DNA of 64,000 bases from an uncultured Gemmatimonadota bacterium (GTDB lineage: Bacteria; Gemmatimonadota; Gemmatimonadetes; Gemmatimonadales; Gemmatimonadaceae). Within the stretch, counting starts at the first letter, position 1. Every line of letters begins with the position of its first letter. The notes under the pieces were generated by a model. The model did no database searches. It had not been told where the DNA came from and saw only the letters and a program-made list of their open reading frames with translations. The position numbers and the translations under genes are program-made. Positions 104 through 63,031 of the stretch are shown here, one piece after another. The stretch lies in contig CAMTWA010000020.1 of the NCBI GenBank assembly GCA_947085385.1, forward strand, positions 29,853 to 93,852. Direction: 5' to 3'.

Positions 104-115
104 GTGTCTGGGGCA

Positions 116-253
116 GAGAGACAACAGAGAGACAACTGATAAACAACAGAGAAACAACAGCTGGCGAAACAGCGACCACGGCTCGCACGGCTGGGCCATC
201 CGACCGCTCGCTGCTGTCTGGCTGTTGTCTCTCTGTTGTCTCTCTGTTGTTTT
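116..253. repeat. Inverted pair of 11-nt tandem-repeat arrays (unit GAGAGACAACA) around a ~50-nt spacer
   Basis: Four units at 116-159 (gagagacaaca, gagagacaact, gataaacaaca, gagaaacaaca). About 3.5 reverse-complement units (tgttgtctctc) at 212-253. Confidence 0.85.
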
Positions 254-6803: not shown

Positions 6804-6810
6804 AAATGCA

Positions 6811-6841
6811 GATGGTAGATGGTAGACGGTAGACAGTAGAG
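6811..6841. repeat. Heptanucleotide tandem repeat (GATGGTA GATGGTA GACGGTA GACAGTA)
   Basis: Read directly in the 47-nt spacer between the ggt stop and the yciI-like start. Confidence 0.8.
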
Positions 6842-6850
6842 CTGTCGCCT

Positions 6851-8758
6851 TCACCACGCGATGCCGTAATCCTCGCCGTGGTTGGACGCCGCCCCCCACA
6901 TGGTCTTGTGCTTGCGGTCGAAGAGAATGGCGGTAATCGGCCCCGACGTGCGTTCCTCGTACTCCATCGTGTAGCCCATCCGCCGCAACTCGTTGCGCAC
7001 GTAGAACGGCAGCGACTCCGCGGCCAGCATGCGTCCCGGCCGGCTCTCGTGCTGGCCGAACGACGACCGCATCTGGAAGCTGTTGATGTTCGGCGCTTCC
7101 ACGGCTTCCTGCGGCGTCATGCCGAACTCGGTGATGTTCAGCAGGAACTGCAGGAGATTCTGGTCCTGCGAGTCGCCGCCCTGCACCGAGAAGGCGATGT
7201 ACGGGGCGCCATCCTTGAGCGCGAGCGACGGCGTCAGGGTCACGCGCGGACGCTTCCCGGGCTCAACGACGTTGAACGGGCCGTCCTCGGGTGCCGTCAC
7301 GAAGCTCTGCGCGCGCTGCGACAGCCCGACCCCCGTATTCCCGGCGATCACGGCCGGAATCCACCCGCCGGACGGCGTCACGGAGATCACCCAGCCTTCT
7401 TCATCGGCGGCTTGAATGGAGGTCGTACCCGCGTAGAACGCCGCCTTGAACGCTTCATCTGCCGTCTGCCCTCTGCCGTCTGCCATCTGCTCCGGCGGCA
7501 CCCGATCCTGCTGTCCGCTCCTCGGCAGGGTGGCCGCGGCCGGCAGTACCGTCCACGCGTCGAGCTGCGCCTTGATTGGGTTGGCGCGTCCCTCGAACGG
7601 ATACGGATCGCCGGGCTTCACGTTGGCGTCGTTCCTGGTCCAGTCGATCTGTGCATACCGCGCCTTGGCGTATTCCTTCGACAGGAGACCATTCATCGGC
7701 TGGTCTTTCGCGAATGCGGGATCTCCGTAGTAGAAGTCACGGTCGGCGAACGCCATGGACATCGCCTGATAGAGGGTGTGCAGGTAACGCGCGCTGTTAT
7801 ACCCCATGCCCTTCAGGTCGGCGTTCTCGACGATGTTCAGCGCCTGTAGCAGCGCCGGTCCCTGCTGCCACTGCTGCAGCTTGTACACCTCGACGCCCTT
7901 GTAGGTGGTCGAGAGCGGCTCCTCGATCTTCACCTTCCAGGTGGCCAGGTCCTGCTCGGTGAACAGGCCGCCCTCCTCGCGCACGCCGCGCACGATCTCC
8001 TTGGCGATGTCGCCCTTGTAGAACCGGTCGTACGCCGCATAGATGGCCTCTTTGCGGTTCTTCCCGGCCTTCAACGCCGCCTGCTCCGTTTCCACGAGCT
8101 TGCGCAGCGTGGCGGCCAGATCCTTCTGCACGAAGACCTCGCCAGCCTCGGGCGCTTCGCGCCGCTCGCCCAGGTGCGGCAGATAGACGGCCTTGGAGTA
8201 CTTCCACTGCTTGATGCGAGCCTTGTTGCTCTCCATCGAGTTGGCCGTCTGCGCCTCGATGGCGTAGCCGTCCGCCATCTGGATCGCCGGCGCCAGCACC
8301 TCCTTGAGCGACAGCCTGCCGTACTCGGCGAGCATCGTCATCAGCCCGCCGGGCGTTCCCGGCGTCACGGCAGCGAGCGGCCCGAACTCCGGCGGATACC
8401 GATACCCCTTGTCCCGGTAGAACTCCGCCGTCGCGCCTGTGGGAGCCACGCCCAGGGCGTTGATACCGATGACCTTCTTGAGCCCCGGATGGTAGATGAG
8501 CGCCTGCGTCTCGCCGCCCCAGCTGAGCACGTCCCACATGGTCGCGACGGAGCCAAGCATGGCGCACGCGGCGTCAATGGCGTTGCCGCCCTTGGTGAAC
8601 ATCATCGCCCCGGCGGTGGCCGCGAGTGGCTTGCCGGTGACCGCCATCCAGTGGCGTCCGTGCAGCGGCGGCTTGGCCGTGCGCTGCGCCAGCAGCGGGC
8701 TGGCGGATGCGATCAGGGCAAGAGTCAGGGCAAAGAGAGTCAGCGAGCGGTTACGCAT
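6851..8758 (-). CDS. ggt: Gamma-glutamyltransferase
   Basis: 635 aa with a signal peptide. GGT-family sequence with the autoprocessing/nucleophile motif AGTTSIQAAD and C-terminal GGDSQDQ. Confidence 0.9.
   Translation of the reverse strand: MRNRSLTLFALTLALIASASPLLAQRTAKPPLHGRHWMAVTGKPLAATAGAMMFTKGGNAIDAACAMLGSVATMWDVLSWGGETQALIYHPGLKKVIGINALGVAPTGATAEFYRDKGYRYPPEFGPLAAVTPGTPGGLMTMLAEYGRLSLKEVLAPAIQMADGYAIEAQTANSMESNKARIKQWKYSKAVYLPHLGERREAPEAGEVFVQKDLAATLRKLVETEQAALKAGKNRKEAIYAAYDRFYKGDIAKEIVRGVREEGGLFTEQDLATWKVKIEEPLSTTYKGVEVYKLQQWQQGPALLQALNIVENADLKGMGYNSARYLHTLYQAMSMAFADRDFYYGDPAFAKDQPMNGLLSKEYAKARYAQIDWTRNDANVKPGDPYPFEGRANPIKAQLDAWTVLPAAATLPRSGQQDRVPPEQMADGRGQTADEAFKAAFYAGTTSIQAADEEGWVISVTPSGGWIPAVIAGNTGVGLSQRAQSFVTAPEDGPFNVVEPGKRPRVTLTPSLALKDGAPYIAFSVQGGDSQDQNLLQFLLNITEFGMTPQEAVEAPNINSFQMRSSFGQHESRPGRMLAAESLPFYVRNELRRMGYTMEYEERTSGPITAILFDRKHKTMWGAASNHGEDYGIAW
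7457..7490 (-). repeat. Heptanucleotide tandem repeat inside the ggt CDS (GATGGCA GACGGCA GAGGGCA GACGGCA on the coding strand)
   Basis: Encodes MADGRGQTAD just upstream of the catalytic Thr. Same unit family as the intergenic heptamers. Confidence 0.8.
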
Positions 8759-20086: not shown

Positions 20087-20160
20087 GATTATTGATTTAG
20101 AGCTCGGATTTGGATCGCGATTGCGATTGGCAATCGTGATTGGTGATTCCTGCACGGGTC

Positions 20161-20195
20161 TCCCATCTCCCATCTCCCATCTCCCATCTCCCATC
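20161..20195 (-). repeat. Five tandem heptamers, (GATGGGA)5 on the suf-coding strand, in the sufB-sufC spacer
   Basis: Plus strand reads tcccatc x5 directly after the sufB stop codon. Confidence 0.9.
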
Positions 20196-20200
20196 TGCTG

Positions 20201-49134: not shown

Positions 49135-49140
49135 GAAGCA

Positions 49141-49261
49141 GAGAAACAACAGAAAGACAACAGAGAGACAACAGAGAAGAAACAGAACGGGCCTCGCGAT
49201 GCCAGCGAGACCCTGCCTGTTGTCTATCTGTTGTTTCTCTGTTGTTTCTCTGTTGTCTCTC
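49141..49261. repeat. Inverted pair of 11-nt arrays (4 + 4 units) around a terminator-like hairpin between convergent genes
   Basis: Left units at 49141-49184 (gagaaacaaca gaaagacaaca gagagacaaca gagaagaaaca). Hairpin 49189-49213. Right units at 49218-49261 (tgttgtctatc tgttgtttctc x2 tgttgtctctc). Confidence 0.85.
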
Positions 49262-50861
49262 TCTGAAACACCAGATCCCACACCCGCCCCGACCCAAGAT
49301 GCATGGCGATGGCCTTGCCCTTCTTATCGCGGGAGAACCAGACGGTGCCGTAGCTGCCCGCCTCGAACGCGTCGGTGTACGCCGGTACCAGCGTGAACTG
49401 CGTGCCCGGGCGAAGCTGCATGACAAGCGCGCCCTTCTCGACCCGGGCCGTCCAGGTGGCACCGATCTCCGGCTGATACCACGTGCCGGACAGCGCCTGC
49501 AGTTGCGCCTCGGTCGGCTGCCAACGCGCGGGGCCCTCGAACATCCACGTAAGCGTGTCGCCGTCCGGTGAGAAGATACGAGCGCCCGTTGGAACGCCAG
49601 TTGCCGCGATGGCGATGCGGAGCCGCGAGGCGGCGCCCATCAGAAAGTCACCGTCACGCAGCGCGCGCAGTGGCGCCCCGCCGCGCACGCGCAATTGGCC
49701 GCGCTCGATGAAGAACTCCGACACGTCGCGCGTGCGATCGTCGCGATAGATGCCTGCGTAGCGTGCTATGCGGCTGGAGTCGGCGGTTGTCGTGTCGAAG
49801 GCCGGCAGCGGCGCGAGGTTCGGGATGAGAGCGTCGGCAATCTGGCGGACATACGCCGTAGCGCCGGCGCCGGCGACGTTGCACATGACGGCGACTGACA
49901 GGCCGGCGTCTGGATACCTGGCCAGGAAGGTGCTGTAACCGGCGGTGCTGCCACTGTGCTGCCATTCGCGTGTTCCGCGATAGATCCCGTTGATGAGCCC
50001 CATCGCGTATGGGATCTTGCGGCCACTGGTGAGCGTGGCCTGGCTGAGCAGCGAGTCGCTGACGGCGCCGAAAGTGCGCTTGCTGAGGGCGTCGTTCCAC
50101 GTAAGCCAGTCGCCCACCGTGGTGAGCAAGCCGCCGGGGCCGTGCACATTCTCAAACGGCATGTTGATCCGCCAGCCGGCTGTGGCGCGCGAATACGCCT
50201 GCGCGCGCCTCGACACGATCTCCGTGAAGTCGTCGCGCCAGCGCGTGTGGGCCATGCCCGCCGGGCGGAAGATGCGCTCGTTGCTGAACTGCGCGAACGG
50301 CATGCCGCTCACGCGCTCGACGATCGTCGGCAGCAGCGCGAAGCCCGAGTTGGTATAGGAGTAGAAATCACCCACCGGGTAGTTGAGCGATTTTTGCCGG
50401 ACGATGATGTCCAACAGATCTGCCTGCGTCGTCACCCGCGTGCCGCGCGGGTAGCCCTGATCGGCTACGAGGTTGCTCCACTCGCGCAGTCCGCTCGTGT
50501 GCGACAGGAGGTGGCGGATGGTGATGGTGCGCCCGTACTGCGGCAGTTCGGGGACGTACTTTCGCACGTCGTCATCAAGCCGGAGTTTGCCCTCGCCGAC
50601 CAGCAGCAGGATAGCGGCCGCGGTGAATTGCTTGGCCACCGACCCGCTCTCGAGAATGGTTTGCGGGGTGATGGGCGTCCCGTTCTCGAGGTCGGCCATG
50701 CCGTAGCCGCGCGTGAAGATGGGCACGCCGTTGCGTGACACGCCGACCGCGCATCCCGGGGTGTGCGTGCTGTTCCACTGGGCGAAGACCTTGTCGGCCA
50801 CCGCGCTGACGTCCTGCGCGCCGAGGGCGGCGGGAAGAGCAAGCAGAAGAAGTCGCTTCAT
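49224..50861 (-). CDS. Serine hydrolase of the beta-lactamase/transpeptidase-like family
   Basis: Signal peptide MKRLLLLALPAALGAQ. SxxK motif SGSVAKQF. The last 12 codons and the stop lie inside the 11-mer array. Confidence 0.8.
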   Translation of the reverse strand: MKRLLLLALPAALGAQDVSAVADKVFAQWNSTHTPGCAVGVSRNGVPIFTRGYGMADLENGTPITPQTILESGSVAKQFTAAAILLLVGEGKLRLDDDVRKYVPELPQYGRTITIRHLLSHTSGLREWSNLVADQGYPRGTRVTTQADLLDIIVRQKSLNYPVGDFYSYTNSGFALLPTIVERVSGMPFAQFSNERIFRPAGMAHTRWRDDFTEIVSRRAQAYSRATAGWRINMPFENVHGPGGLLTTVGDWLTWNDALSKRTFGAVSDSLLSQATLTSGRKIPYAMGLINGIYRGTREWQHSGSTAGYSTFLARYPDAGLSVAVMCNVAGAGATAYVRQIADALIPNLAPLPAFDTTTADSSRIARYAGIYRDDRTRDVSEFFIERGQLRVRGGAPLRALRDGDFLMGAASRLRIAIAATGVPTGARIFSPDGDTLTWMFEGPARWQPTEAQLQALSGTWYQPEIGATWTARVEKGALVMQLRPGTQFTLVPAYTDAFEAGSYGTVWFSRDKKGKAIAMHLGSGRVWDLVFQRETTEKQQRNNR

Positions 50862-54100: not shown

Positions 54101-54170
54101 TAAAAGAGTACGACAGAGGACGACGGAGTGCGACAGAGGACGACAGAGTGCGACAGGGCGCGGACAGCGT
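54101..54170. repeat. About 20-nt direct repeat (gtgcgacagaggacgacaga, ~2.5 copies) directly upstream of the small-subunit start codon
   Basis: gtacgacagaggacgacgga gtgcgacagaggacgacaga gtgcgacagggcgcggacagcg. Confidence 0.65.
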
Positions 54171-54562: not shown

Positions 54563-54568
54563 CGCGGA

Positions 54569-54716
54569 GACGGCGGAGGGCAGACGGCGGACGGCGGACG
54601 GCAGAGGGCAGAGGGCAGAGGGCAGAACAAGCGCCCGGCGGAATCAAACGCCGGGCGCTCTCTTGTTGTCACGCTGCCGTCCGCCGTCCGCCGTCTGCCC
54701 TCTGCCGTCGCTGCCT
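54569..54716. repeat. Inverted heptamer arrays (8 units GA[CG]GGC[GA] left, 5 units right) flanking a terminator hairpin
   Basis: Left array 54569-54624, right array 54675-54709 (reverse complement units). Lies between the convergent ferredoxin and methyltransferase genes. Confidence 0.85.
54626..54667. terminator. Bidirectional terminator-like hairpin
   Basis: cgcccggcg-gaatcaaa-cgccgggcg 9-bp stem, extended by aacaag/cttgtt. Confidence 0.6.
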
Positions 54717-58019: not shown

Positions 58020-59393
58020 TTAGCGCGGACGCTGAACAGGCGGCTTCTTCCCTTTCGGCGCCGTCGGTTGTGCCTTGCCGGCGGACGCCTTCGCGGCCGG
58101 CTTCTTGATGCTGGCCTTCGCGGCTACGGCTGCCGGACGTGACGTGGCCTTCTTGCCGCGCGACCGGCGGACGCGCAGCGGCTTGTTCCAGTTGACCGCG
58201 CGATCGGCGCGGAAGGCCGCGGGCATGATGCTGATATGCAACTCGTCGTCCGTGACGGCGAGCGCGGCCGCGTCAGCGAGGTCGGCGCGCACATCAGCGA
58301 TGACCGTGGACGGCCGCCGCACGCGCGCCGCGTGGACGCGATTGGTGAGCAGGATGACGAACATGTCGCGCTGTGGATCTATCCACATTGACGTGCCGGT
58401 ATAGCCGACGTGTCCGTAGGCCGTCGGGCTCAAGTAGTCGCCCGCACCGTGCCGGCCTTCCGCCATCTCCCACCCAAGCGCGCGCGAGCCCGACGCGCGC
58501 TGCGTGAACAGTCGCACGGTGGGCTCACTCACGATGCGCCTGTCCCGGTAGATGCCGCCATCGAGCAGCATCTGGGCGAAGACGGCGAGATCGTCCGCGG
58601 TGCCGAACAGGCCGGCATGCCCGGCGACACCGCCCAGCACGTACGCATTCTCGTCGTGTACCTGGCCCTGCAGGGGATAGCCTCGTGGCGGCGCCATCTC
58701 GGTAGGCGCCACACGGCCGCGCACGGAACCGGAGGGCAAGAAGAACGTGTCGTTCATCCCCAACGGGCCGAACACGCGTTCCTGCACGAACACGTCCAGC
58801 GGAACGCCGGCGATCGACTCCACCACCCAGCCCAGCACGTCTGCGCCAAGATCGGAGTAGATGAAGGAACGGCCGGGGCGATAGCGGAGCTTCGTCTCAA
58901 TGACCGCGCGCCTGGCTTCGTCCGGGGTGCGATCAACTCGCCAGAGTTCACGCCCGGCCGGCAGGCCGCTGCGATGAGTGAGCAGGTGGCGAATGGTGAC
59001 TTCGTTCTTCCACGTGCCGACAAAGCCCGGAAGATAATCGGCCACCTTGCCGTCGAGCGGCAGGCGGCCCTCGTCATACAGGACCATGGCCGCCGTCGTC
59101 GTGGCGACGACCTTGGTGAGCGACGCGAGGTCGTAGATCGTCCCGTCCGCCGAGACAGCGGCACTCCCGATGCCCCACCCCATCGTGCCGAATCCCTTGC
59201 GCCATACGGCCGCGCCACCACGGCCGACGATGACCGCCGCACCGGGGAATCCGCCGGCCCGAATGCCCTCCTGCACCACCCGATCAATGATCTCCAGCCG
59301 TTCGGACGACATACCCATGCTTTCCGGCAAACGAATCGGCAGGCGATCCGTCGGTCCGCCAAGCGCAAGCGCGGTAAGGAGATGGAGAACCAT
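58020..59393 (-). CDS. Serine hydrolase (beta-lactamase family) with Lys/Ala/Pro-rich basic C-terminal tail
   Basis: SxxK motif ASLTKVV. Tail RSRGKKATSRPAAVAAKASIKKPAAKASAGKAQPTAPKGKKPPVQRPR. Start trimmed to MVLHLLTAL. Confidence 0.75.
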   Translation of the reverse strand: MVLHLLTALALGGPTDRLPIRLPESMGMSSERLEIIDRVVQEGIRAGGFPGAAVIVGRGGAAVWRKGFGTMGWGIGSAAVSADGTIYDLASLTKVVATTTAAMVLYDEGRLPLDGKVADYLPGFVGTWKNEVTIRHLLTHRSGLPAGRELWRVDRTPDEARRAVIETKLRYRPGRSFIYSDLGADVLGWVVESIAGVPLDVFVQERVFGPLGMNDTFFLPSGSVRGRVAPTEMAPPRGYPLQGQVHDENAYVLGGVAGHAGLFGTADDLAVFAQMLLDGGIYRDRRIVSEPTVRLFTQRASGSRALGWEMAEGRHGAGDYLSPTAYGHVGYTGTSMWIDPQRDMFVILLTNRVHAARVRRPSTVIADVRADLADAAALAVTDDELHISIMPAAFRADRAVNWNKPLRVRRSRGKKATSRPAAVAAKASIKKPAAKASAGKAQPTAPKGKKPPVQRPR

Positions 59394-59579
59394 TGGTACC
59401 AGCGGAAGGGGGGAGCGACGGCAACGACACTGAATCAACGCGGTCGCTGAACCGGTACGGCATCGAATGGGAGGCTAAGGACTAGCGTCCACGCCCTGTA
59501 CACGCAAGACGAGTACTTTCACCGACAGTCACCTTGGCAACCAATTCAGCGGGCCAGGTGACTCACCTAGCGAACGTTC

Positions 59580-60149
59580 ATGGCTGATCAACTGACAATC
59601 CGACGCGCCATCCACGGCGACGAAGCGGCGTTGCGCACCCTTTGGGTGCAATACGCGCCGCGCATCGACGCCGTGGTCAGGCGACTGGTGGGCGATCCGG
59701 ACGAAGCGGCCGACGTGGCGCAGGAGGTCTGGATACAGATCTTCCGGGCGCTTCCCACCTACCGCGGCGACTCGCAGTTCGGCACGTGGGCGCACCGCAT
59801 CGCCGTGAACCGCACGTTGAACGCACTGCGGGCGCTTCGCCGGATTGGCAAGCGGGAGACGGAGATCGAGGAGGAGACCGCGTCGGTTGAGCACGACGGC
59901 GATCGCTCGCTGCTGGCGCAGACGATTGACGAGGCGGTACAGAAATTGTCGCCCGGAGCACGAACTATCTTCGTGCTCCACGATGTCGAGGGGTACACGC
60001 ACGAAGAGATCGCGGCCGAGCTGGGCATCACGGCCGGCGGGTCGAAATCGCAGCTGTTCAAGGCGCGCGCGAAGCTGCGCACGCTGCTCAGGCACCTGGT
60101 AGATGATCCCATTTCGCGGGAACCGTCACATGCTGCACATCTCTCCTGA
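59580..60149 (+). CDS. ECF-type RNA polymerase sigma factor
   Basis: Region 2 (DVAQEVWIQIFRALPTYRGDSQFGTWAHRIAVN) and region 4 (VLHDVEGYTHEEIAAELGITAGGSKSQLFKAR). Confidence 0.9.
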   Translation: MADQLTIRRAIHGDEAALRTLWVQYAPRIDAVVRRLVGDPDEAADVAQEVWIQIFRALPTYRGDSQFGTWAHRIAVNRTLNALRALRRIGKRETEIEEETASVEHDGDRSLLAQTIDEAVQKLSPGARTIFVLHDVEGYTHEEIAAELGITAGGSKSQLFKARAKLRTLLRHLVDDPISREPSHAAHLS

Positions 60150-60825
60150 ACGACTGGCCGCGCTGGTGGACGAGACGGCGACGCCCGATGAGGCCTCGCA
60201 CCTCGCTGTCTGTGCGCTATGCACGGGCGAACTCACGGCGCACCGTCGGCTCGTCCGCATGGCGCTCACCGAGATGCCGCGGGAAGGACCGCCGCTCAAC
60301 GACTGGGCCTCGCTGGGGGCGATGCTGAAGGCCGAGGGGATCATCTCGGCCGCCCCAGCACCTCCGGCGCATCGGTCGCGTACGGTGTGGGCGATGCGCA
60401 TCGCGGCGGGGCTCGTGCTGGTAGCGGGGAGCGTGCTTGCGGGGCGGTGGAGCGCCGGCCTCGACATCACGACCGCGCCACAACAGGCGGCCGTAACAGC
60501 GCCCGCCCCGGCCGCGCCGGTCTTTGCGTCGCCGCAGGCCGCCATGCAGGTGCTGACCTCGGCGCAACAGCAGTACTCTGACGCCGCGACGTATCTCGCC
60601 GCGCAGGACACGTCGTCGCACTTCATCGGGTTGAACGTCAATACGTATCGCGCCCGGCTCACGGCCCTGGACAACATTGTGGCATCTACGCGCGCGGCAC
60701 TGTATCAGGCGCCGCAGGATCCGGTGCTCAACCAGTACTATCTCTCCGCGATGGCGGCGCGCGAAGCGACGCTCAAGCAGTACCAGGCGGCGTTGCCGGC
60801 GAAGCAGGCGCTCGAGCGGTACTAG
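60130..60825 (+). CDS. Anti-sigma factor (zf-HC2 type) with one TM segment
   Basis: H-x3-C-x2-C motif HLAVCALC. TM segment MRIAAGLVLVAGSVLAG. Overlaps the sigma gene end. Confidence 0.75.
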   Translation: MLHISPERLAALVDETATPDEASHLAVCALCTGELTAHRRLVRMALTEMPREGPPLNDWASLGAMLKAEGIISAAPAPPAHRSRTVWAMRIAAGLVLVAGSVLAGRWSAGLDITTAPQQAAVTAPAPAAPVFASPQAAMQVLTSAQQQYSDAATYLAAQDTSSHFIGLNVNTYRARLTALDNIVASTRAALYQAPQDPVLNQYYLSAMAAREATLKQYQAALPAKQALERY

Positions 60826-60837
60826 CGCTGGCGCGCA

Positions 60838-60958
60838 GAGAGACAACAGAGAGACAACAGAGAGACAACAGAGAGACAACAGAGAGACAACAGAGAGACA
60901 ACAGAGAGACAACAGAGAGACAACAGAGAAACAACAGAAAGACAACAGAGAAACAACA
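60838..60958 (+). repeat. Unidirectional tandem array of 11 copies of an 11-nt unit (8 x GAGAGACAACA then 3 variants)
   Basis: Counted by hand. The plus strand contains no T over 121 nt. Lies in the 159-nt spacer between the anti-sigma stop and the PDZ gene start. Confidence 0.9.
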
Positions 60959-60984
60959 GAAGTACACTTCAAGGACTTGATGCA

Positions 60985-62214
60985 ATGACGGCATTCCTTC
61001 CCTCTATGCGACGAATCGTGCCGGCCGCGTTGATGGCCAGCGCGTTGATGGCCAGCGCATTGATGGGCGCGGTGATCGGCGTCGCGGACGCACAGCAGCC
61101 GGCGCCTGCCCCGCGTCCGGAGCGGCACGTCACGGTGCGCGTGGACACCAACGAGCGCATGAAGGTCACCCTCGTTCTCGAGGGACTCGACAGCCTGATG
61201 CGGTCGCTGGTGCAATCGCGGGCGCTTGAGGAGCGCATCGGTATGGCGCTGCGTGAATACGGCGCGACACTCGCTGACGCGTCGCGGAGGCGCGCCCTCG
61301 AGGAGCAGTTGCAGCAGTTGGCCGAGAAGAACGTGCAGTTGATGTCGAAGATCCAGATGGCGTGCACGAACCGGAAGACGTCGGAGTACGCGCCTGAGGG
61401 CTATCTGGGCGTGACGTTCAACATCATGGGAACGGTGAAGCGGGAGGCGAACGGCCCCGACGTCTATCGCTTTGATGAACCGCCCGAGATCATCTCCGTG
61501 GAGACCGGATCGCCGGCAGACCGCGCGGGGATGCGCCGCGGCGACCGCATTATCACCCTGGATGGACGGGACGTGGTCGGGCGCGACGTGATCCTCTCGC
61601 AACTGCTGGTGCCCGGACGCAAGCTGCCGGCGCGCATCGCGCGCGACGGACGCGAGCAGGCCGTCTCGGTGCTGGTGCAGAAGCGTCCAGACGGGTTCGG
61701 CGACCAATGTGTGGATCTGGACTTGGCGTGGGGCCCGATGCGTTCGCCCGGGCTGAAACCGCCGTCGCCGGGGAGTCGCACCTTCACATTCGAACGTTCG
61801 CCGTCAGCGCCGTCAGCGCCGTCAGCGCCGTCAGCGCCGTCAGCGCCGTCGTCGCCGCGCGTCACGACTCCGCCGGCCCCTCCCGCGCCGAACGTTTGGG
61901 TGTTCGACGCGCCGCCGCCGGTGGCGATCGCCGGCTTCTCGAGCATCGTGGCAGGCGCACAGCTCACGTCGCTGACCGAGGACTTCAAGGACGTACTCGG
62001 CGCCGATGCCGGCGTGCTGGTGCAGCGCGTCGCCTCCGAGTCGCCGGCCGCTCAGGCGGGGCTGAGGGGCGGCGACGTGATCGTCGAGGCGGGCGACCGC
62101 CCCGTGACCAGCGCGCGGCTGCTGCAGCGCCTGATTGGCGACTCCGATGAGCGCTCGCTGAAACTCAAGGTGTTGCGCAAAGGGAAGACGCGGACGGTGT
62201 GGTTGAAGTGGTAG
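60985..62214 (+). CDS. Secreted protein with two PDZ domains (no protease domain recognised)
   Basis: Signal peptide. PDZ-like segments GYLGVTF...GSPADRAGMRRGDRIITLDG and GVLVQRVASESPAAQAGLRGGDVIVEAG. Confidence 0.75.
   Translation: MTAFLPSMRRIVPAALMASALMASALMGAVIGVADAQQPAPAPRPERHVTVRVDTNERMKVTLVLEGLDSLMRSLVQSRALEERIGMALREYGATLADASRRRALEEQLQQLAEKNVQLMSKIQMACTNRKTSEYAPEGYLGVTFNIMGTVKREANGPDVYRFDEPPEIISVETGSPADRAGMRRGDRIITLDGRDVVGRDVILSQLLVPGRKLPARIARDGREQAVSVLVQKRPDGFGDQCVDLDLAWGPMRSPGLKPPSPGSRTFTFERSPSAPSAPSAPSAPSAPSSPRVTTPPAPPAPNVWVFDAPPPVAIAGFSSIVAGAQLTSLTEDFKDVLGADAGVLVQRVASESPAAQAGLRGGDVIVEAGDRPVTSARLLQRLIGDSDERSLKLKVLRKGKTRTVWLKW
61028..61072 (+). repeat. 15-nt tandem duplication inside the PDZ gene signal peptide
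   Basis: gcgttgatggccagc x2 then gcattgatgggcgcg, encoding ALMASALMASALMGA. Confidence 0.75.
61801..61854 (+). repeat. 9-nt tandem repeat (ccgtcagcg x5 plus a variant) inside the PDZ gene
   Basis: Encodes the (SAP)n linker PSAPSAPSAPSAPSAPSSP between the two PDZ domains. Confidence 0.85.
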
Positions 62215-62215
62215 G

Positions 62216-63031
62216 CTAGCCCGCGCTGGCTTGCATGCGTGGGGTGGCAAGCAGCCAGCGCCCGAAGGTGCGAACGTCTCCCCACCTCCGCCCCTCGTCG
62301 CACATCAGCCTGGCGTCGCTCAGTGAAATCCCGGCGAGTGACGCCCACCTGGCGGCGTCGCGCGGCTGCTGCTCAACGATCGTCAGATCGTGGGTTTGGT
62401 TGAAGCGGGTGCATAGGGTGTCCGTGGCACCGGGTGCGGCGAAATCATGCAGTTCGACGCACAGCGCTGACCTGGCCAGCCAGGGAACACGCGCGGGGTC
62501 AAGGAGGTCGCGTTCGCCGCCCTCGCAGTCGCAGATCACGAGGACGCCTTCCGAAGGCGGCACGGCGAGCGCCGCCAGTGCGTCAATATCCGCTGCACCG
62601 AGCGCATGCACCCGCTCGCCCACGCGGTTGTAAGCGGCGCTTTGGATGGTTTTCTCACGCCAGGCGGCATCCATTTCGTACGCGTAGACCGTTGCGTTCC
62701 CAAGGCGCATGGCCATGCCAGTCGAGTAGTAGCCGCCGGCGCTGCCAATGTTGACCGCGATTGGCCAGCCGCGCGCGAACTCGCGTTCCAGCCACGCGTG
62801 GTTTTCGCATTCGAAGGACCCCATCAGCATCGCGGCTTCACAGTCACCGGGGGTGTCGGCGTGCAACCGAAGCCCCACGAACGGGCCAGCTGCGACGCAA
62901 CCTCCCGTATGATTCCAGACGCGCGCACGCGCGCGACGGCTGGCCGACCATCGCGTGAGCCGCAGCCGCCGGCGCACATTCAGTGGGATCAGCGAGTGGT
63001 ACACCTGCCGCAGGATGGAAACGAGTTTCAC
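62216..63031 (-). CDS. Putative SAM-dependent methyltransferase (FkbM-like)
   Basis: Only the C-terminal ~270 codons of ORF 62216..63814 look coding. Contains VNIGSAGGYYS (glycine-rich SAM loop-like). The GTG start at 63031 is tentative. Confidence 0.5.
   Translation of the reverse strand: MKLVSILRQVYHSLIPLNVRRRLRLTRWSASRRARARVWNHTGGCVAAGPFVGLRLHADTPGDCEAAMLMGSFECENHAWLEREFARGWPIAVNIGSAGGYYSTGMAMRLGNATVYAYEMDAAWREKTIQSAAYNRVGERVHALGAADIDALAALAVPPSEGVLVICDCEGGERDLLDPARVPWLARSALCVELHDFAAPGATDTLCTRFNQTHDLTIVEQQPRDAARWASLAGISLSDARLMCDEGRRWGDVRTFGRWLLATPRMQASAG

What the first reader, a model, noticed from the sequence alone, without database searches (positions are those of the whole stretch)
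60838..60958. Eleven tandem copies of an 11-nt unit (GAGAGACAACA) between the anti-sigma gene and the PDZ gene
There are eight perfect units followed by three single or double variants. An 11-nt period cannot encode a protein repeat in one frame, and the ORF-track peptides RDNRETTERQQ... are artefacts. The plus strand has no T over 121 nt and is 9/11 purine per unit. The period is close to one helical turn of DNA. The array lies within a probable sigma / anti-sigma / PDZ operon, so it is probably transcribed as an unstructured A/G-rich RNA spacer. Possibilities include phased DNA curvature or one-face protein binding, polypurine/polypyrimidine triplex formation, an RNA-binding-protein landing pad (ARN-like triplets), or a slippage-prone copy-number switch tuning downstream expression.
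Basis: partly seen in the sequence, partly recalled or inferred. Interest (0 to 1): 0.6.

Follow-up and report, generated by a model that had tools for sequence, protein, structure and literature searches.

The report
Gene-end purine repeat inside sigma operon
The eleven 11-base repeats are real, but they are one copy of a genome-wide family of purine-rich repeat runs that sit just after gene ends in this Gemmatimonadota genus; this copy lies inside an operon, has kept its place across the genus while its unit changed, and its function is still unproven.

Summary
In detail: window 60838-60958 holds 11 units of GAGAGACAACA, eight of them perfect, with no T and no predicted structure on either strand.

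It is not a locus-specific device. The genome (2.84 Mb) holds 65 arrays of this unit. The exact 11-mer occurs 148 times against fewer than 1 expected. The family follows clear rules:
- The purine strand starts 0-20 nt after a stop codon or tRNA end (42 arrays against 5 in the opposite orientation).
- All 15 inverted pairs run purine array, then GC hairpin, then pyrimidine array.
- Copy number peaks sharply at four units.

The focal array is an unusual member: solo, without a hairpin, inside the ECF sigma / anti-sigma / PDZ operon.

The same spacer holds an array in 17 of 19 species of the genus. The unit follows each species' own genome-wide "dialect" (11, 10, 9 or 7 nt), with 2-6 copies in relatives. 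The 11-nt period is therefore not what is conserved. The 11 copies look like a recent slippage expansion.

Helical phasing, triplex formation and Hfq binding are not supported.

The closest published analogue is the gene-end heptamer arrays of Xanthomonas and Nostoc, whose function is unknown. This unit cannot form G-quadruplexes yet shows the same four-unit preference.

The parts
59580..60149 (+). ECF sigma factor gene, first gene of the operon
   Evidence: Pfam Sigma70_r2, Sigma70_r4_2 and Sigma70_ECF. It overlaps the next ORF.
60103..60825 (+). Probable zinc-binding anti-sigma factor gene; the start may instead be the ATG at 60130; stop TAG at 60823-60825
   Evidence: No Pfam hit. It has the HLAVCALC (H-x3-C-x2-C) motif and a hydrophobic segment, and it overlaps the sigma gene. 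Its C-terminus ...AKQALERY* is conserved directly upstream of the spacer in all 19 genus genomes examined.
60826..60837 (+). 12-nt linker CGCTGGCGCGCA between the stop codon and the array, ending in the family's usual 'GCA' lead-in
   Evidence: Most family members start 0-20 nt after a stop (mode 5 nt) with ...gGCA|GAGAG.
60838..60925 (+). Eight perfect GAGAGACAACA units; inferred recent slippage expansion
   Evidence: Relatives have 2-6 units here. In this genome, arrays with 8 or more units are purer than short ones (adjacent-unit identity 0.98 against 0.91).
60926..60958 (+). Three variant units (GAGAAACAACA, GAAAGACAACA, GAGAAACAACA); the older, orthologous 3' part of the array
   Evidence: The last unit plus its junction (GAGAAACAACA-GAAG) recurs in G014, G016 and G007.
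60959..60984 (+). Conserved linker with the Shine-Dalgarno-like AAGGA (60972-60976) and a 2-codon mini-ORF, ATG CAA TGA (60980-60988), whose stop overlaps the PDZ start
   Evidence: The pattern ttcAAGGAnnTTGATGnnATGA is present in most of the orthologous spacers read.
60985..62214 (+). Secreted protein with two PDZ domains; the downstream cistron
   Evidence: Pfam PDZ_2, PDZ_6 and PDZ. An orthologue is present in 19 of 19 genus genomes.
114..250 (.). Another family member in the window: purine array 114-160, a spacer, then the inverted pyrimidine array 207-250
49135..49262 (.). Another family member: stop TAG, purine array, GC hairpin, inverted pyrimidine array
54568..54709 (.). Heptamer (AGACGGC) counterpart of the same architecture after the ferredoxin-like gene: purine array, GC hairpin, inverted array

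Best explanation
The array is a solo, hairpin-less, operon-internal member of a lineage-wide family of purine-strand short tandem repeats that mark gene ends in this Gemmatimonadaceae genus.

Shown:
- 65 arrays of this unit occur in the genome.
- Their purine strand begins right after a stop codon or a tRNA end.
- They usually run into a GC hairpin, followed by the inverted array or a T-rich remnant of it.
- Copy number peaks at four units.
- The anti-sigma/PDZ spacer holds such an array in 17 of 19 species. Its unit matches each species' genome-wide dialect (11, 10, 9 or 7 nt).
- A second operon spacer, tdh-kbl, behaves the same way.

Inferred:
- The array is co-transcribed with sigma, anti-sigma and PDZ as a U-free RNA tract that cannot fold on itself.
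- An ancestral array of about four units grew to eleven here by replication slippage of one unit type.
- Arrays at unlinked loci change unit together. The family is therefore kept, or written, by something acting genome-wide: a factor that reads single-stranded CAGA-core repeats, or a repeat-homogenising process. A local DNA-geometry effect does not explain this.
- At this locus the likeliest local role is a structure-free spacer or standby platform just 5' of the moderately structured PDZ ribosome-binding site. It would uncouple PDZ translation from anti-sigma. This last step is the weakest.
For: - Census and over-representation: (148 observed against fewer than 1 expected).
- Stop-codon rule: 42 of 65 arrays in the purine orientation against 5 of 65 in the pyrimidine orientation (p = 2e-8). 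Arrays also follow tRNA 3' ends.
- Pair polarity: 15 of 15 pairs run purine array to pyrimidine array (p = 6e-5).
- A strong hairpin follows directly in 21 of 65 arrays, against 14 of 3000 random windows.
- Copy-number mode is 4 (34 of 65). Only one isolated unit exists.
- The family is present in 10 of 19 genus genomes and in 0 of 22 outside the genus. The 10-mer dialect is genome-wide in other species of the genus, and the reversed-pattern control gave 0 hits.
- Orthologous spacers.
- tdh-kbl spacer. In 11 of 12 species with clear arrays at both loci, the two loci use the same unit family.
- Operon context: no promoter-like or terminator-like site, and a TAGccATG junction in G011.
- Lack of structure: MFE 0.0 on both strands, array unpaired 0.87, ribosome-binding region 0.40.
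- Long arrays are purer than short ones.
- A published analogue has the same position rule, the same four-unit mode and conservation of position between species (PMC4692102).
Against: - There is no RNA data, so co-transcription is inferred.
- Thermodynamic modelling shows no gain in accessibility of the PDZ ribosome-binding site: native 0.41, array deleted 0.50, random genomic filler 0.47 +/- 0.05. The tdh-kbl locus gave the same negative result.
- Most family members sit beside hairpins or after tRNAs, where a translation role makes no sense. Any translational role here would be secondary.
- Two species do without the array at this spacer (G011 has none; G005 has a decayed remnant), so it is dispensable.
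- No candidate trans-acting factor was identified.
- Copy number could not be checked in reads.
Confidence: 0.5

Rival explanations
1. The array is a functionless by-product. It would be a slippage-prone minisatellite family that is tolerated only where it does no harm (just outside ORFs), with orientation filtered by selection. Examples of such selection are pressure against pyrimidine-rich, Rho-attracting tracts in sense RNA, or pressure to keep terminators working. On this view the focal array is neutral filler that happened to expand.
For: - Copy number varies 2-11 between species.
- Long arrays are the purest, as expected for recent expansions.
- The array has been lost or has decayed in G011 and G005 without loss of the operon.
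- Modelling shows no effect on ribosome-site accessibility.
- The function of the published analogues is unknown, and those repeats serve as variable-number markers (PMC8002079, listed).
Against: - The sharp mode at four units and the near absence of 1- and 2-unit arrays do not fit a simple slippage equilibrium.
- The array persists at the same two operon spacers in most species, although the proteins are only 61-77% identical.
- Unit dialects change together at unlinked loci.
- Local neutral slippage alone does not explain these three points.
Confidence: 0.25
2. The working strand is the antisense strand. Transcribed from the minus strand, the array gives (UGUUGUCUCUC)11. This is an unstructured tract with more C than G and many pyrimidine-C pairs, and it could load Rho. 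Rho would then stop antisense or convergent read-through RNA polymerase before it crosses the anti-sigma and sigma genes. In paired modules the pyrimidine arm would back up a hairpin that lacks a proper U-tract.
For: - The antisense RNA has 30 pyrimidine-C dinucleotides against 0 in the sense RNA. It is C 25%, G 18%, U 57%, with MFE 0.0.
- A Rho gene is present.
- In this genome the PDZ gene and the convergent ORF end 1 nt apart with no terminator, so antisense read-through into the operon is plausible.
- The pair polarity places the pyrimidine arm 3' of the hairpin in both directions.
Against: - C content is modest for a Rho loading site.
- Several family members place the pyrimidine array in the sense 5' leader, 10-18 nt before a start codon (C1 84932, C2 201088, C7 127224). 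There, Rho loading would be harmful.
- There is no transcript data.
Confidence: 0.12
3. The array is a copy-number (phase-variable) switch that tunes PDZ expression by changing the distance or the content of the spacer.
For: The array is highly pure and long, so it is slippage-prone. Its length differs between species.
Against: - The array lies outside any ORF.
- It does not lie between promoter elements. No promoter-like site was found, and a T-free strand cannot carry a -10 box.
- The Shine-Dalgarno sequence and start lie in a conserved linker downstream, which copy number does not change.
- The same repeats sit next to housekeeping genes such as tdh-kbl and tRNAs.
- Within-population variation could not be tested.
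Confidence: 0.05
4. The array acts at the DNA level through phased curvature, one-face protein binding, or H-DNA (triplex) formed by the mirror-symmetric purine/pyrimidine tract.
For: The unit is a mirror repeat: its reverse is a rotation of itself. That is why the 'backwards' control also matched. The period of 11 is close to one helical turn.
Against: - The orthologous arrays have periods of 11, 10, 9 and 7 nt.
- The heptamer family in the same genome follows the same placement rules.
- The purine strand is interrupted by 2 C per unit, and other dialects contain T.
- The strand polarity relative to ORF borders points to an asymmetric, strand-specific process.
Confidence: 0.04
5. The array is a landing pad for Hfq, as (ARN)n or AG repeats.
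For: The sequence is A/G-rich, single-stranded and repetitive.
Against: No Hfq homologue was detected in the genome by a six-frame Pfam search that found Hfq in 5 control genomes. The 11-nt period also breaks any triplet register.
Confidence: 0.02

Closest known systems
Gene-end heptamer repeat arrays of Xanthomonas (GGGAATC) and Nostoc/Anabaena (GGGGA(C/T)T, the cyanobacterial STRR type); Rehm et al. 2015, PLoS One, PMC4692102
   Same: - Dispersed tandem arrays enriched in non-coding DNA.
[quoted passage not shown] - Inverted pairs occur.
- The same intergenic places are occupied in related species, with length and sequence variation.
- Neighbouring genes are of all functional classes.
- Function is unknown (compared).
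   Different: - The unit here is 11 nt, or 10, 9 or 7 nt in sister species.
- It has no G-run, so the G-quadruplex rationale for the four-unit mode cannot apply.
- It is free of T.
- The unit shifts in concert across the genus.
- The host phylum is Gemmatimonadota, for which I found no published report.
REP / BIME / REPIN elements with their RAYT (Y1) transposases
   Same: Both are short, lineage-specific, extragenic repeats. Both sit after stop codons, inside operons and between convergent genes, often as inverted pairs that form hairpins. In both, each lineage has its own sequence.
   Different: - The unit here is not a palindrome. It is a tandemly repeated 11-mer.
- The central hairpins are locus-specific and are not part of a copied element.
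- The 34 four-unit arrays have 32 different orders of unit variants, so they are not copies of one element.
- No Y1/RAYT gene is present in this genome or in 16 of the 19 genus genomes.
Bidirectional intrinsic terminators (A-tract, GC hairpin, U-tract)
   Same: For the family as a whole, an A-rich array lies 5' and a U-rich array 3' of a GC hairpin in both reading directions. The unit ends (ACAGAG / CUCUGU) extend the stem.
   Different: The focal array has no hairpin and no pyrimidine partner, and it sits inside an operon. Some full modules lie between co-directional genes and abut the next start codon, so they cannot all be efficient terminators. Tandem multiplication of the flanks is not a terminator feature.
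Unstructured ribosome standby sites / CA-rich translation enhancers (established concept from E. coli work; cited from my own knowledge)
   Same: A long single-stranded tract that cannot fold on itself lies directly 5' of a moderately structured ribosome-binding site.
   Different: This is untested here, and modelling shows no accessibility gain. The same repeats occur where no translation start follows.

Membership tests
Gene-end short tandem repeat arrays (Xanthomonas/Nostoc heptamer type, PMC4692102) | Dispersed genome-wide tandem arrays of one short unit, over-represented and mostly non-coding | tested here: met
   65 arrays; 148 exact units against fewer than 1 expected. By TRF, 61 of 83 period-11 arrays are intergenic.
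Gene-end short tandem repeat arrays (Xanthomonas/Nostoc heptamer type, PMC4692102) | [quoted passage not shown] | tested here: met
   42 of 65 arrays against 5 of 65 in the opposite orientation; distances 0-20 nt, mode 5. About 10 arrays abut a start codon on the other strand. The focal array starts 12 nt after TAG.
Gene-end short tandem repeat arrays (Xanthomonas/Nostoc heptamer type, PMC4692102) | Preference for four units | tested here: met
   34 of 65 arrays have 4 units. The focal array itself is an outlier with 11. Its orthologues have 2-6 units.
Gene-end short tandem repeat arrays (Xanthomonas/Nostoc heptamer type, PMC4692102) | Heptameric G-tract unit able to form G-quadruplexes | tested here: not met
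   The unit is 11 nt and its longest G run is 1. Four G-tracts are therefore impossible.
Gene-end short tandem repeat arrays (Xanthomonas/Nostoc heptamer type, PMC4692102) | The same intergenic place is occupied in related species, with length and sequence variation | tested here: met
   Focal spacer: 17 of 19 species. tdh-kbl spacer: 12 of 17 species with clear arrays.
Gene-end short tandem repeat arrays (Xanthomonas/Nostoc heptamer type, PMC4692102) | Repeats are transcribed | not testable with these tools
   No RNA run holds this organism.
REP/REPIN-RAYT system | Imperfect palindromic unit of about 20-40 nt that folds by itself | tested here: not met
   The array has MFE 0.0 on both strands, and the unit has no self-complementarity.
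REP/REPIN-RAYT system | A cognate Y1 (RAYT) transposase gene in the genome | tested here: not met
   PF01797 is absent from G000 and found in only 3 of 19 genus genomes.
Intrinsic terminator | GC-rich stem-loop followed by a U-rich tract | tested here: not met
   There is none at or after the focal array. Many other family members do meet this feature.
Phase-variation (contingency) repeat | Repeat lies inside an ORF or between promoter elements, so that unit number switches expression | tested here: not met
   The array lies between a stop codon and a conserved SD/start linker. No promoter-like site was found.
Phase-variation (contingency) repeat | Unit number is polymorphic within populations | not testable with these tools
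   Only k=31 unitigs were available, and they break inside the array.
H-DNA / triplex-forming mirror repeat | Uninterrupted homopurine/homopyrimidine mirror repeat | tested here: not met
   Mirror symmetry is present (control hits). However, each unit has 2 C on the purine strand, and the longest purine run is 7 nt.
Hfq (ARN)n site | Hfq present; A-R-N triplet register | tested here: not met
   No Hfq match was found. The 11-nt period shifts the triplet register at every unit.
Rho utilisation (rut) site, on the antisense RNA | At least about 60-80 nt of unstructured RNA with C>G and pyrimidine-C dimers; Rho present | tested here: inconclusive
   The composition criteria are met weakly: C 25%, G 18%, 30 pyrimidine-C dimers, MFE 0. 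Rho is present. Activity and antisense transcription are untested.

The most novel reading that the evidence does not exclude
A still unknown genome-wide agent reads or writes these repeats in units of about four. It could be a multivalent single-strand RNA- or DNA-binding protein that recognises the shared CAGA core, or a templated repeat-adding or repeat-homogenising activity. It would co-evolve with the unit, which would explain three things: the 7-, 9-, 10- and 11-nt 'dialects' that change together at unlinked orthologous loci; the four-unit mode in a repeat that cannot form G-quadruplexes; and the absence of single-unit seeds. The arrays would then be a real 'punctuation' signal at the ends of transcription and translation units. 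The focal copy would be an intra-operon mark that sets PDZ output relative to sigma and anti-sigma.
Probability: 0.15. Interest if true: 0.8.

Novelty: new variant of a known kind. Interest (0 to 1): 0.5.

Why it matters
Gene-end short tandem repeats have been described in Xanthomonas and cyanobacteria for decades without a function. The one concrete idea is G-quadruplex formation, offered to explain the preference for four units.

This Gemmatimonadota family follows the same placement rule and has the same four-unit mode. Its unit, however, cannot form a quadruplex, a hairpin or a clean triplex. That removes the structural explanation and points to something that counts units.

The genus also offers a natural experiment. 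Orthologous operon spacers keep an array while the unit changes length and sequence in step with the rest of the genome. A trans-acting partner could therefore be sought by phylogenetic profiling and pull-downs.

For annotation, these arrays are useful markers of gene ends and operon junctions in the phylum. They should not be read as locus-specific regulators.

Tried and rejected
- Read-level copy number. Five metagenome runs hold the locus, but only as k=31 unitigs that stop at 60862/60864 and resume at 60931. Neither the count of 11 nor heterogeneity could be checked.
- RNA evidence. No RNA run holds the organism.
- Same-species or strain comparison. An exact-protein look-up found nothing. 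The closest PDZ homologues in 5.8 billion proteins are 73% identical or less, so there are no close strains.
- Rfam. No family matched in 59400-62400 at E<=1.
- Ribosome-site insulation model. Deleting the array, or replacing it with random genomic filler, did not lower predicted accessibility of the PDZ or kbl start regions. This gives no support for the model but is not a refutation.
- First hairpin detector. It was too permissive (63% of random windows). I replaced it with a strict Watson-Crick test (21 of 65 arrays against 14 of 3000 random windows).
- The idea that four-unit arrays are copies of one 44-nt mobile element. Rejected, because 34 arrays show 32 different variant orders.
- The idea that arrays grow from many single-unit terminator-flank seeds. 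Weakened, because only one isolated unit exists.
- RAYT/REPIN and Hfq. Both were tested and not met.
- The 'backwards' control of the pattern search is invalid for this unit, because its reverse is a rotation of itself. The 10-mer search had a clean control.
- Literature searches for such repeats in Gemmatimonadetes or Gemmatimonas found nothing relevant.
- PDZ homologues outside the genus are only 30-38% identical, so orthology of the spacer could not be followed further.

Full report
**1. Observation**

TRF reports one array at 60836-60960: period 11, 11.4 copies, 95% matches. The sequence shows eight perfect GAGAGACAACA units followed by three single-base variants. Composition is A69 G30 C22 T0.

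The array lies between two + strand ORFs: 60103-60825 and 60985-62214. Pfam confirms an ECF sigma factor at 59580-60149 and two PDZ domains in the downstream protein. The middle ORF has no Pfam hit. It overlaps the sigma gene and carries the H-x3-C-x2-C zinc anti-sigma motif.

**2. It is one member of a genome-wide family**

The window is C20:29853-93852 of a 2.84-Mb, 24-contig genome with 67% G+C. The exact 11-mer occurs 148 times on both strands, against 0.5-0.7 expected. A scan allowing up to 2 mismatches per unit finds 65 arrays.

The unit varies only at positions 3 and 5. The variants are GAGAG, GAGAA, GAAAG, GACAA and GACAG. The core ACAACAGA is constant.

Copy numbers are 2:1, 3:11, 4:34, 5:5, 6:4, 7:2 and 8-13:8, which is a sharp mode at four. 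Only one isolated unit exists outside arrays, against 2.3 expected by chance. The 34 four-unit arrays show 32 different orders of unit variants, so they are not copies of one 44-nt element. Arrays with 8 or more units are purer than short ones: adjacent-unit identity is 0.98 against 0.91.

A second large family of heptamers, AGA(C/T)GG(N), has more than 65 strongly purine-skewed intergenic arrays in the same genome. It shares a CAGA core with the 11-mer.

**3. Placement rules**

Read on its purine strand, an array typically starts 0-20 nt (mode 5) after the stop codon of a long, high-GC3 ORF, as '...TAG gGGCA GAGAGACAACA'.
- This holds for 42 of 65 arrays, against 5 of 65 when read on the pyrimidine strand (p = 2e-8).
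- Three arrays follow tRNA 3' ends.
- About ten arrays abut a start codon on the other strand.
- Fifteen inverted pairs exist, and all run purine array, then 25-87 nt, then pyrimidine array (p = 6e-5).
- The array usually runs straight into a locus-specific GC-rich stem-loop whose base is formed by the unit ends (ACAGAG...CTCTGT). The inverted array or a degenerate T-rich remnant follows.
- A strict hairpin of 10 bp or more follows 21 of 65 arrays, against 14 of 3000 random windows.

The central hairpins differ from locus to locus.

The window itself contains two more 11-mer modules (114-250 and 49135-49262) and a heptamer module (54568-54709).

**4. The focal copy is atypical**

It has no partner arm and no hairpin. 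Twenty-six nucleotides after the array comes the PDZ start. No sigma-70-like promoter and no terminator-like site lies anywhere in 59300-62400, and Rfam finds nothing.

The array has MFE 0.0 on both strands. In the modelled mRNA it is 0.87 unpaired, against 0.35 for the flanking coding sequence and 0.40 for the ribosome-binding region.

A few other hairpin-less, intercistronic members exist:
- tdh-kbl (C2:137643, 5 units), C21:25115 and C5:77045, with the purine strand in the sense RNA.
- C1:84932, C2:201088 and C7:127224, with the pyrimidine strand in the sense 5' leader, abutting the next start codon.

**5. Comparative evidence**

The 11-mer family is present in 10 of 19 genomes of the genus and in none of 22 genomes from other genera of the family and order. 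The tool's 'backwards' control is invalid here, because the unit's reverse is a rotation of itself.

A 10-mer dialect, AGAG(A/T)ACGAC, is genome-wide in other species of the genus and in two species that carry both dialects. Its control gave zero hits.

The PDZ orthologue is present in all 19 genomes at 61-77% identity. The anti-sigma/PDZ spacer holds an array in 17 of them:

| Unit at the focal spacer | Genome: copies |
|---|---|
| 11-mer | G000: 11; G014: 4; G016: 5; G007: 4; G009: 4; G001: 6; G017: 5; G002: 3; G006: 4; G010: 3 |
| AGAGAACAAC (10 nt) | G015: 4-5 |
| AGAG(A/T)ACGAC (10 nt) | G018: 4; G013: 5-6; G012: 5; G004: 2-3 |
| AGAAACGAC (9 nt) | G003: 5 |
| GACGATA (7 nt) | G008: 4-5 |
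| Decayed remnant | G005 |
| No spacer (TAGccATG) | G011 |

The unit follows relatedness: the 11-mer occurs in the nearer species and the ACGAC forms in the more distant ones. It also matches each species' genome-wide family.

The linker after the array (ttcAAGGAnnTTGATGnnATGA) is conserved. The last unit and its junction are shared by G000, G014, G016 and G007. The eight perfect units in G000 therefore look like a recent expansion of an ancestral array of about four units.

The same pattern holds at an unlinked operon spacer, tdh-kbl. Clear arrays are present in 12 of 17 species, and in 11 of those 12 the unit family is the same as at the focal locus of that species. This includes the heptamer of G008.

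G005 and G011 lack the long-unit family at both loci. They still carry heptamer arrays elsewhere, at 2.5 and 5.6 skewed arrays per 100 kb against 6.9 in G000.

Other genera of the family show 7-8-nt arrays, including inverted pairs.

**6.

- Helical phasing or curvature. The period at the orthologous site is 11, 10, 9 or 7 nt, so the period is not the conserved property.
- Triplex. Mirror symmetry is present, but the purine strand is interrupted twice per unit and other dialects contain T.
- ARN/Hfq. No Hfq homologue was found in a search that recovers Hfq in control genomes.
- Copy-number switch. The array is outside ORFs and promoter elements, the SD/start linker is unaffected by unit number, and the same repeats flank housekeeping genes and tRNAs. 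Population-level variation could not be tested.
- Unstructured transcribed spacer. This is supported by modelling and context but not by RNA data.

**7. Comparison with what is known**

The closest published system is the GGGAATC / GGGGA(C/T)T heptamer arrays of Xanthomonas and Nostoc (PMC4692102). These arrays share five features with the family here:
- They prefer four units.
- They occupy the same intergenic places in related species, with length and sequence variation.
- Their neighbouring genes belong to all functional classes.
- Their function is unknown.

The authors tie the four-unit mode to G-quadruplex formation. Here the unit has no G-run, so that explanation cannot hold, yet the mode is the same.

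REP/REPIN elements resemble the family in placement and lineage specificity. However, the unit here is not palindromic, the centres are not conserved, and a Y1/RAYT gene is absent from this genome and from 16 of 19 genus genomes.

Many family members look like bidirectional terminators with multiplied A-rich and U-rich flanks. The focal one does not. Full modules that abut the next start codon between co-directional genes cannot all be efficient terminators.

Earlier notes of this scan describe the same style of repeat in other Gemmatimonadota genomes, and they led me to the Xanthomonas paper. I re-tested the placement and pairing rules on this genome rather than relying on those notes.

**8. 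Best reading and rivals**

I am confident (about 0.8) of three points:
- This is an operon-internal member of a gene-end repeat family.
- Its place predates the genus.
- Its 11 copies are a lineage-specific slippage expansion.

Concerted change of the unit at unlinked loci, the four-unit mode and the lack of single-unit seeds argue for a genome-wide agent that reads or maintains the repeats. The nature of that agent is unknown.

For the local effect I favour a structure-free spacer or standby platform 5' of the PDZ ribosome-binding site. This is the weakest step, because modelling gave no accessibility gain and the family's main habitats are not translation starts.

The rivals are:
- Neutral slippage-prone filler filtered by selection (0.25).
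- An antisense Rho-loading tract (0.12). Rho is present and the antisense RNA is rich in pyrimidine-C pairs, but pyrimidine arrays also sit in sense leaders.
- A phase-variable switch (0.05).
- DNA geometry or triplex (0.04).
- An Hfq pad (0.02).

**9. Limits**

- There are no raw reads, no RNA data and no close strains.
- Gene calls for the census are my own GC3-based ORF calls, which cover 79% of the genome.
- The genome is a short-read metagenome assembly. One contig ends in Illumina adapter sequence.
- Orthologous spacers were read by eye from fetched loci.

**10. Verdict**

The feature is real and the locus is correctly described, but the array is not a one-off regulatory element. It is a new variant, in a new phylum, of a known but unexplained kind of bacterial repeat: a long, quadruplex-incapable unit with genus-wide dialects. 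Interest is moderate and comes mainly from what the family says about the four-unit rule and concerted evolution.

Noticed in passing
window 60980-60988: A two-codon mini-ORF, ATG CAA TGA, has a stop that overlaps the PDZ start codon (ATGA). The pattern TTGATGnnATGA, 4-5 nt after an AAGGA Shine-Dalgarno-like motif, recurs in most of the orthologous spacers read. It could be a start-stop or re-initiation device for the PDZ gene.
   Followed up: partly
window 61026-61066 and 61799-61857: There are in-frame tandem repeats inside the PDZ gene. One is a 15-nt unit x2.7 in the signal-peptide region (ALMAS repeats). The other is a 9-nt unit x5.8 encoding (SAP)n in the inter-domain linker.
   Followed up: no
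window 62212-62218: The PDZ gene and the convergent ORF end 1 nt apart (TAGgCTA) with no terminator module. In relative G009 the same junction holds an inverted pair of 10-mer arrays (L013).
   Followed up: partly
window 54105-54156: An array of the 10-mer AGAGTACGAC type lies in a divergent promoter region in this genome. This unit is the dominant dialect of the more distant species of the genus. Its placement breaks the usual after-stop rule.
   Followed up: no
G000 C2:137643-137697 (outside the window): The tdh-kbl operon spacer carries five units. In G002 the orthologous array runs directly into the kbl ATG with no Shine-Dalgarno sequence. Several species have only an A/C-rich leader there.
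   Followed up: yes
G000 contig C15, last 29 bases (outside the window): The contig ends in Illumina adapter sequence (AGATCGGAAGAGCACACGTCTGAACTCCA). This is untrimmed contamination in the assembly.
   Followed up: no
genome-wide, e.g. window 6810-6840, 7456-7490, 20159-20196, 54568-54709: The heptamer family AGA(C/T)GG(N) has more than 65 purine-skewed intergenic arrays. It follows the same after-stop rule (37 against 13) and shares a CAGA core with the 9-, 10- and 11-nt units.
   Followed up: partly
G000 inverted pairs, e.g. C2:72270/72344 and C14:32125/32202: The two arms of a pair do not share the order of unit variants, so the arms are not kept strictly complementary. Each arm seems to evolve as its own array.
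   Followed up: partly
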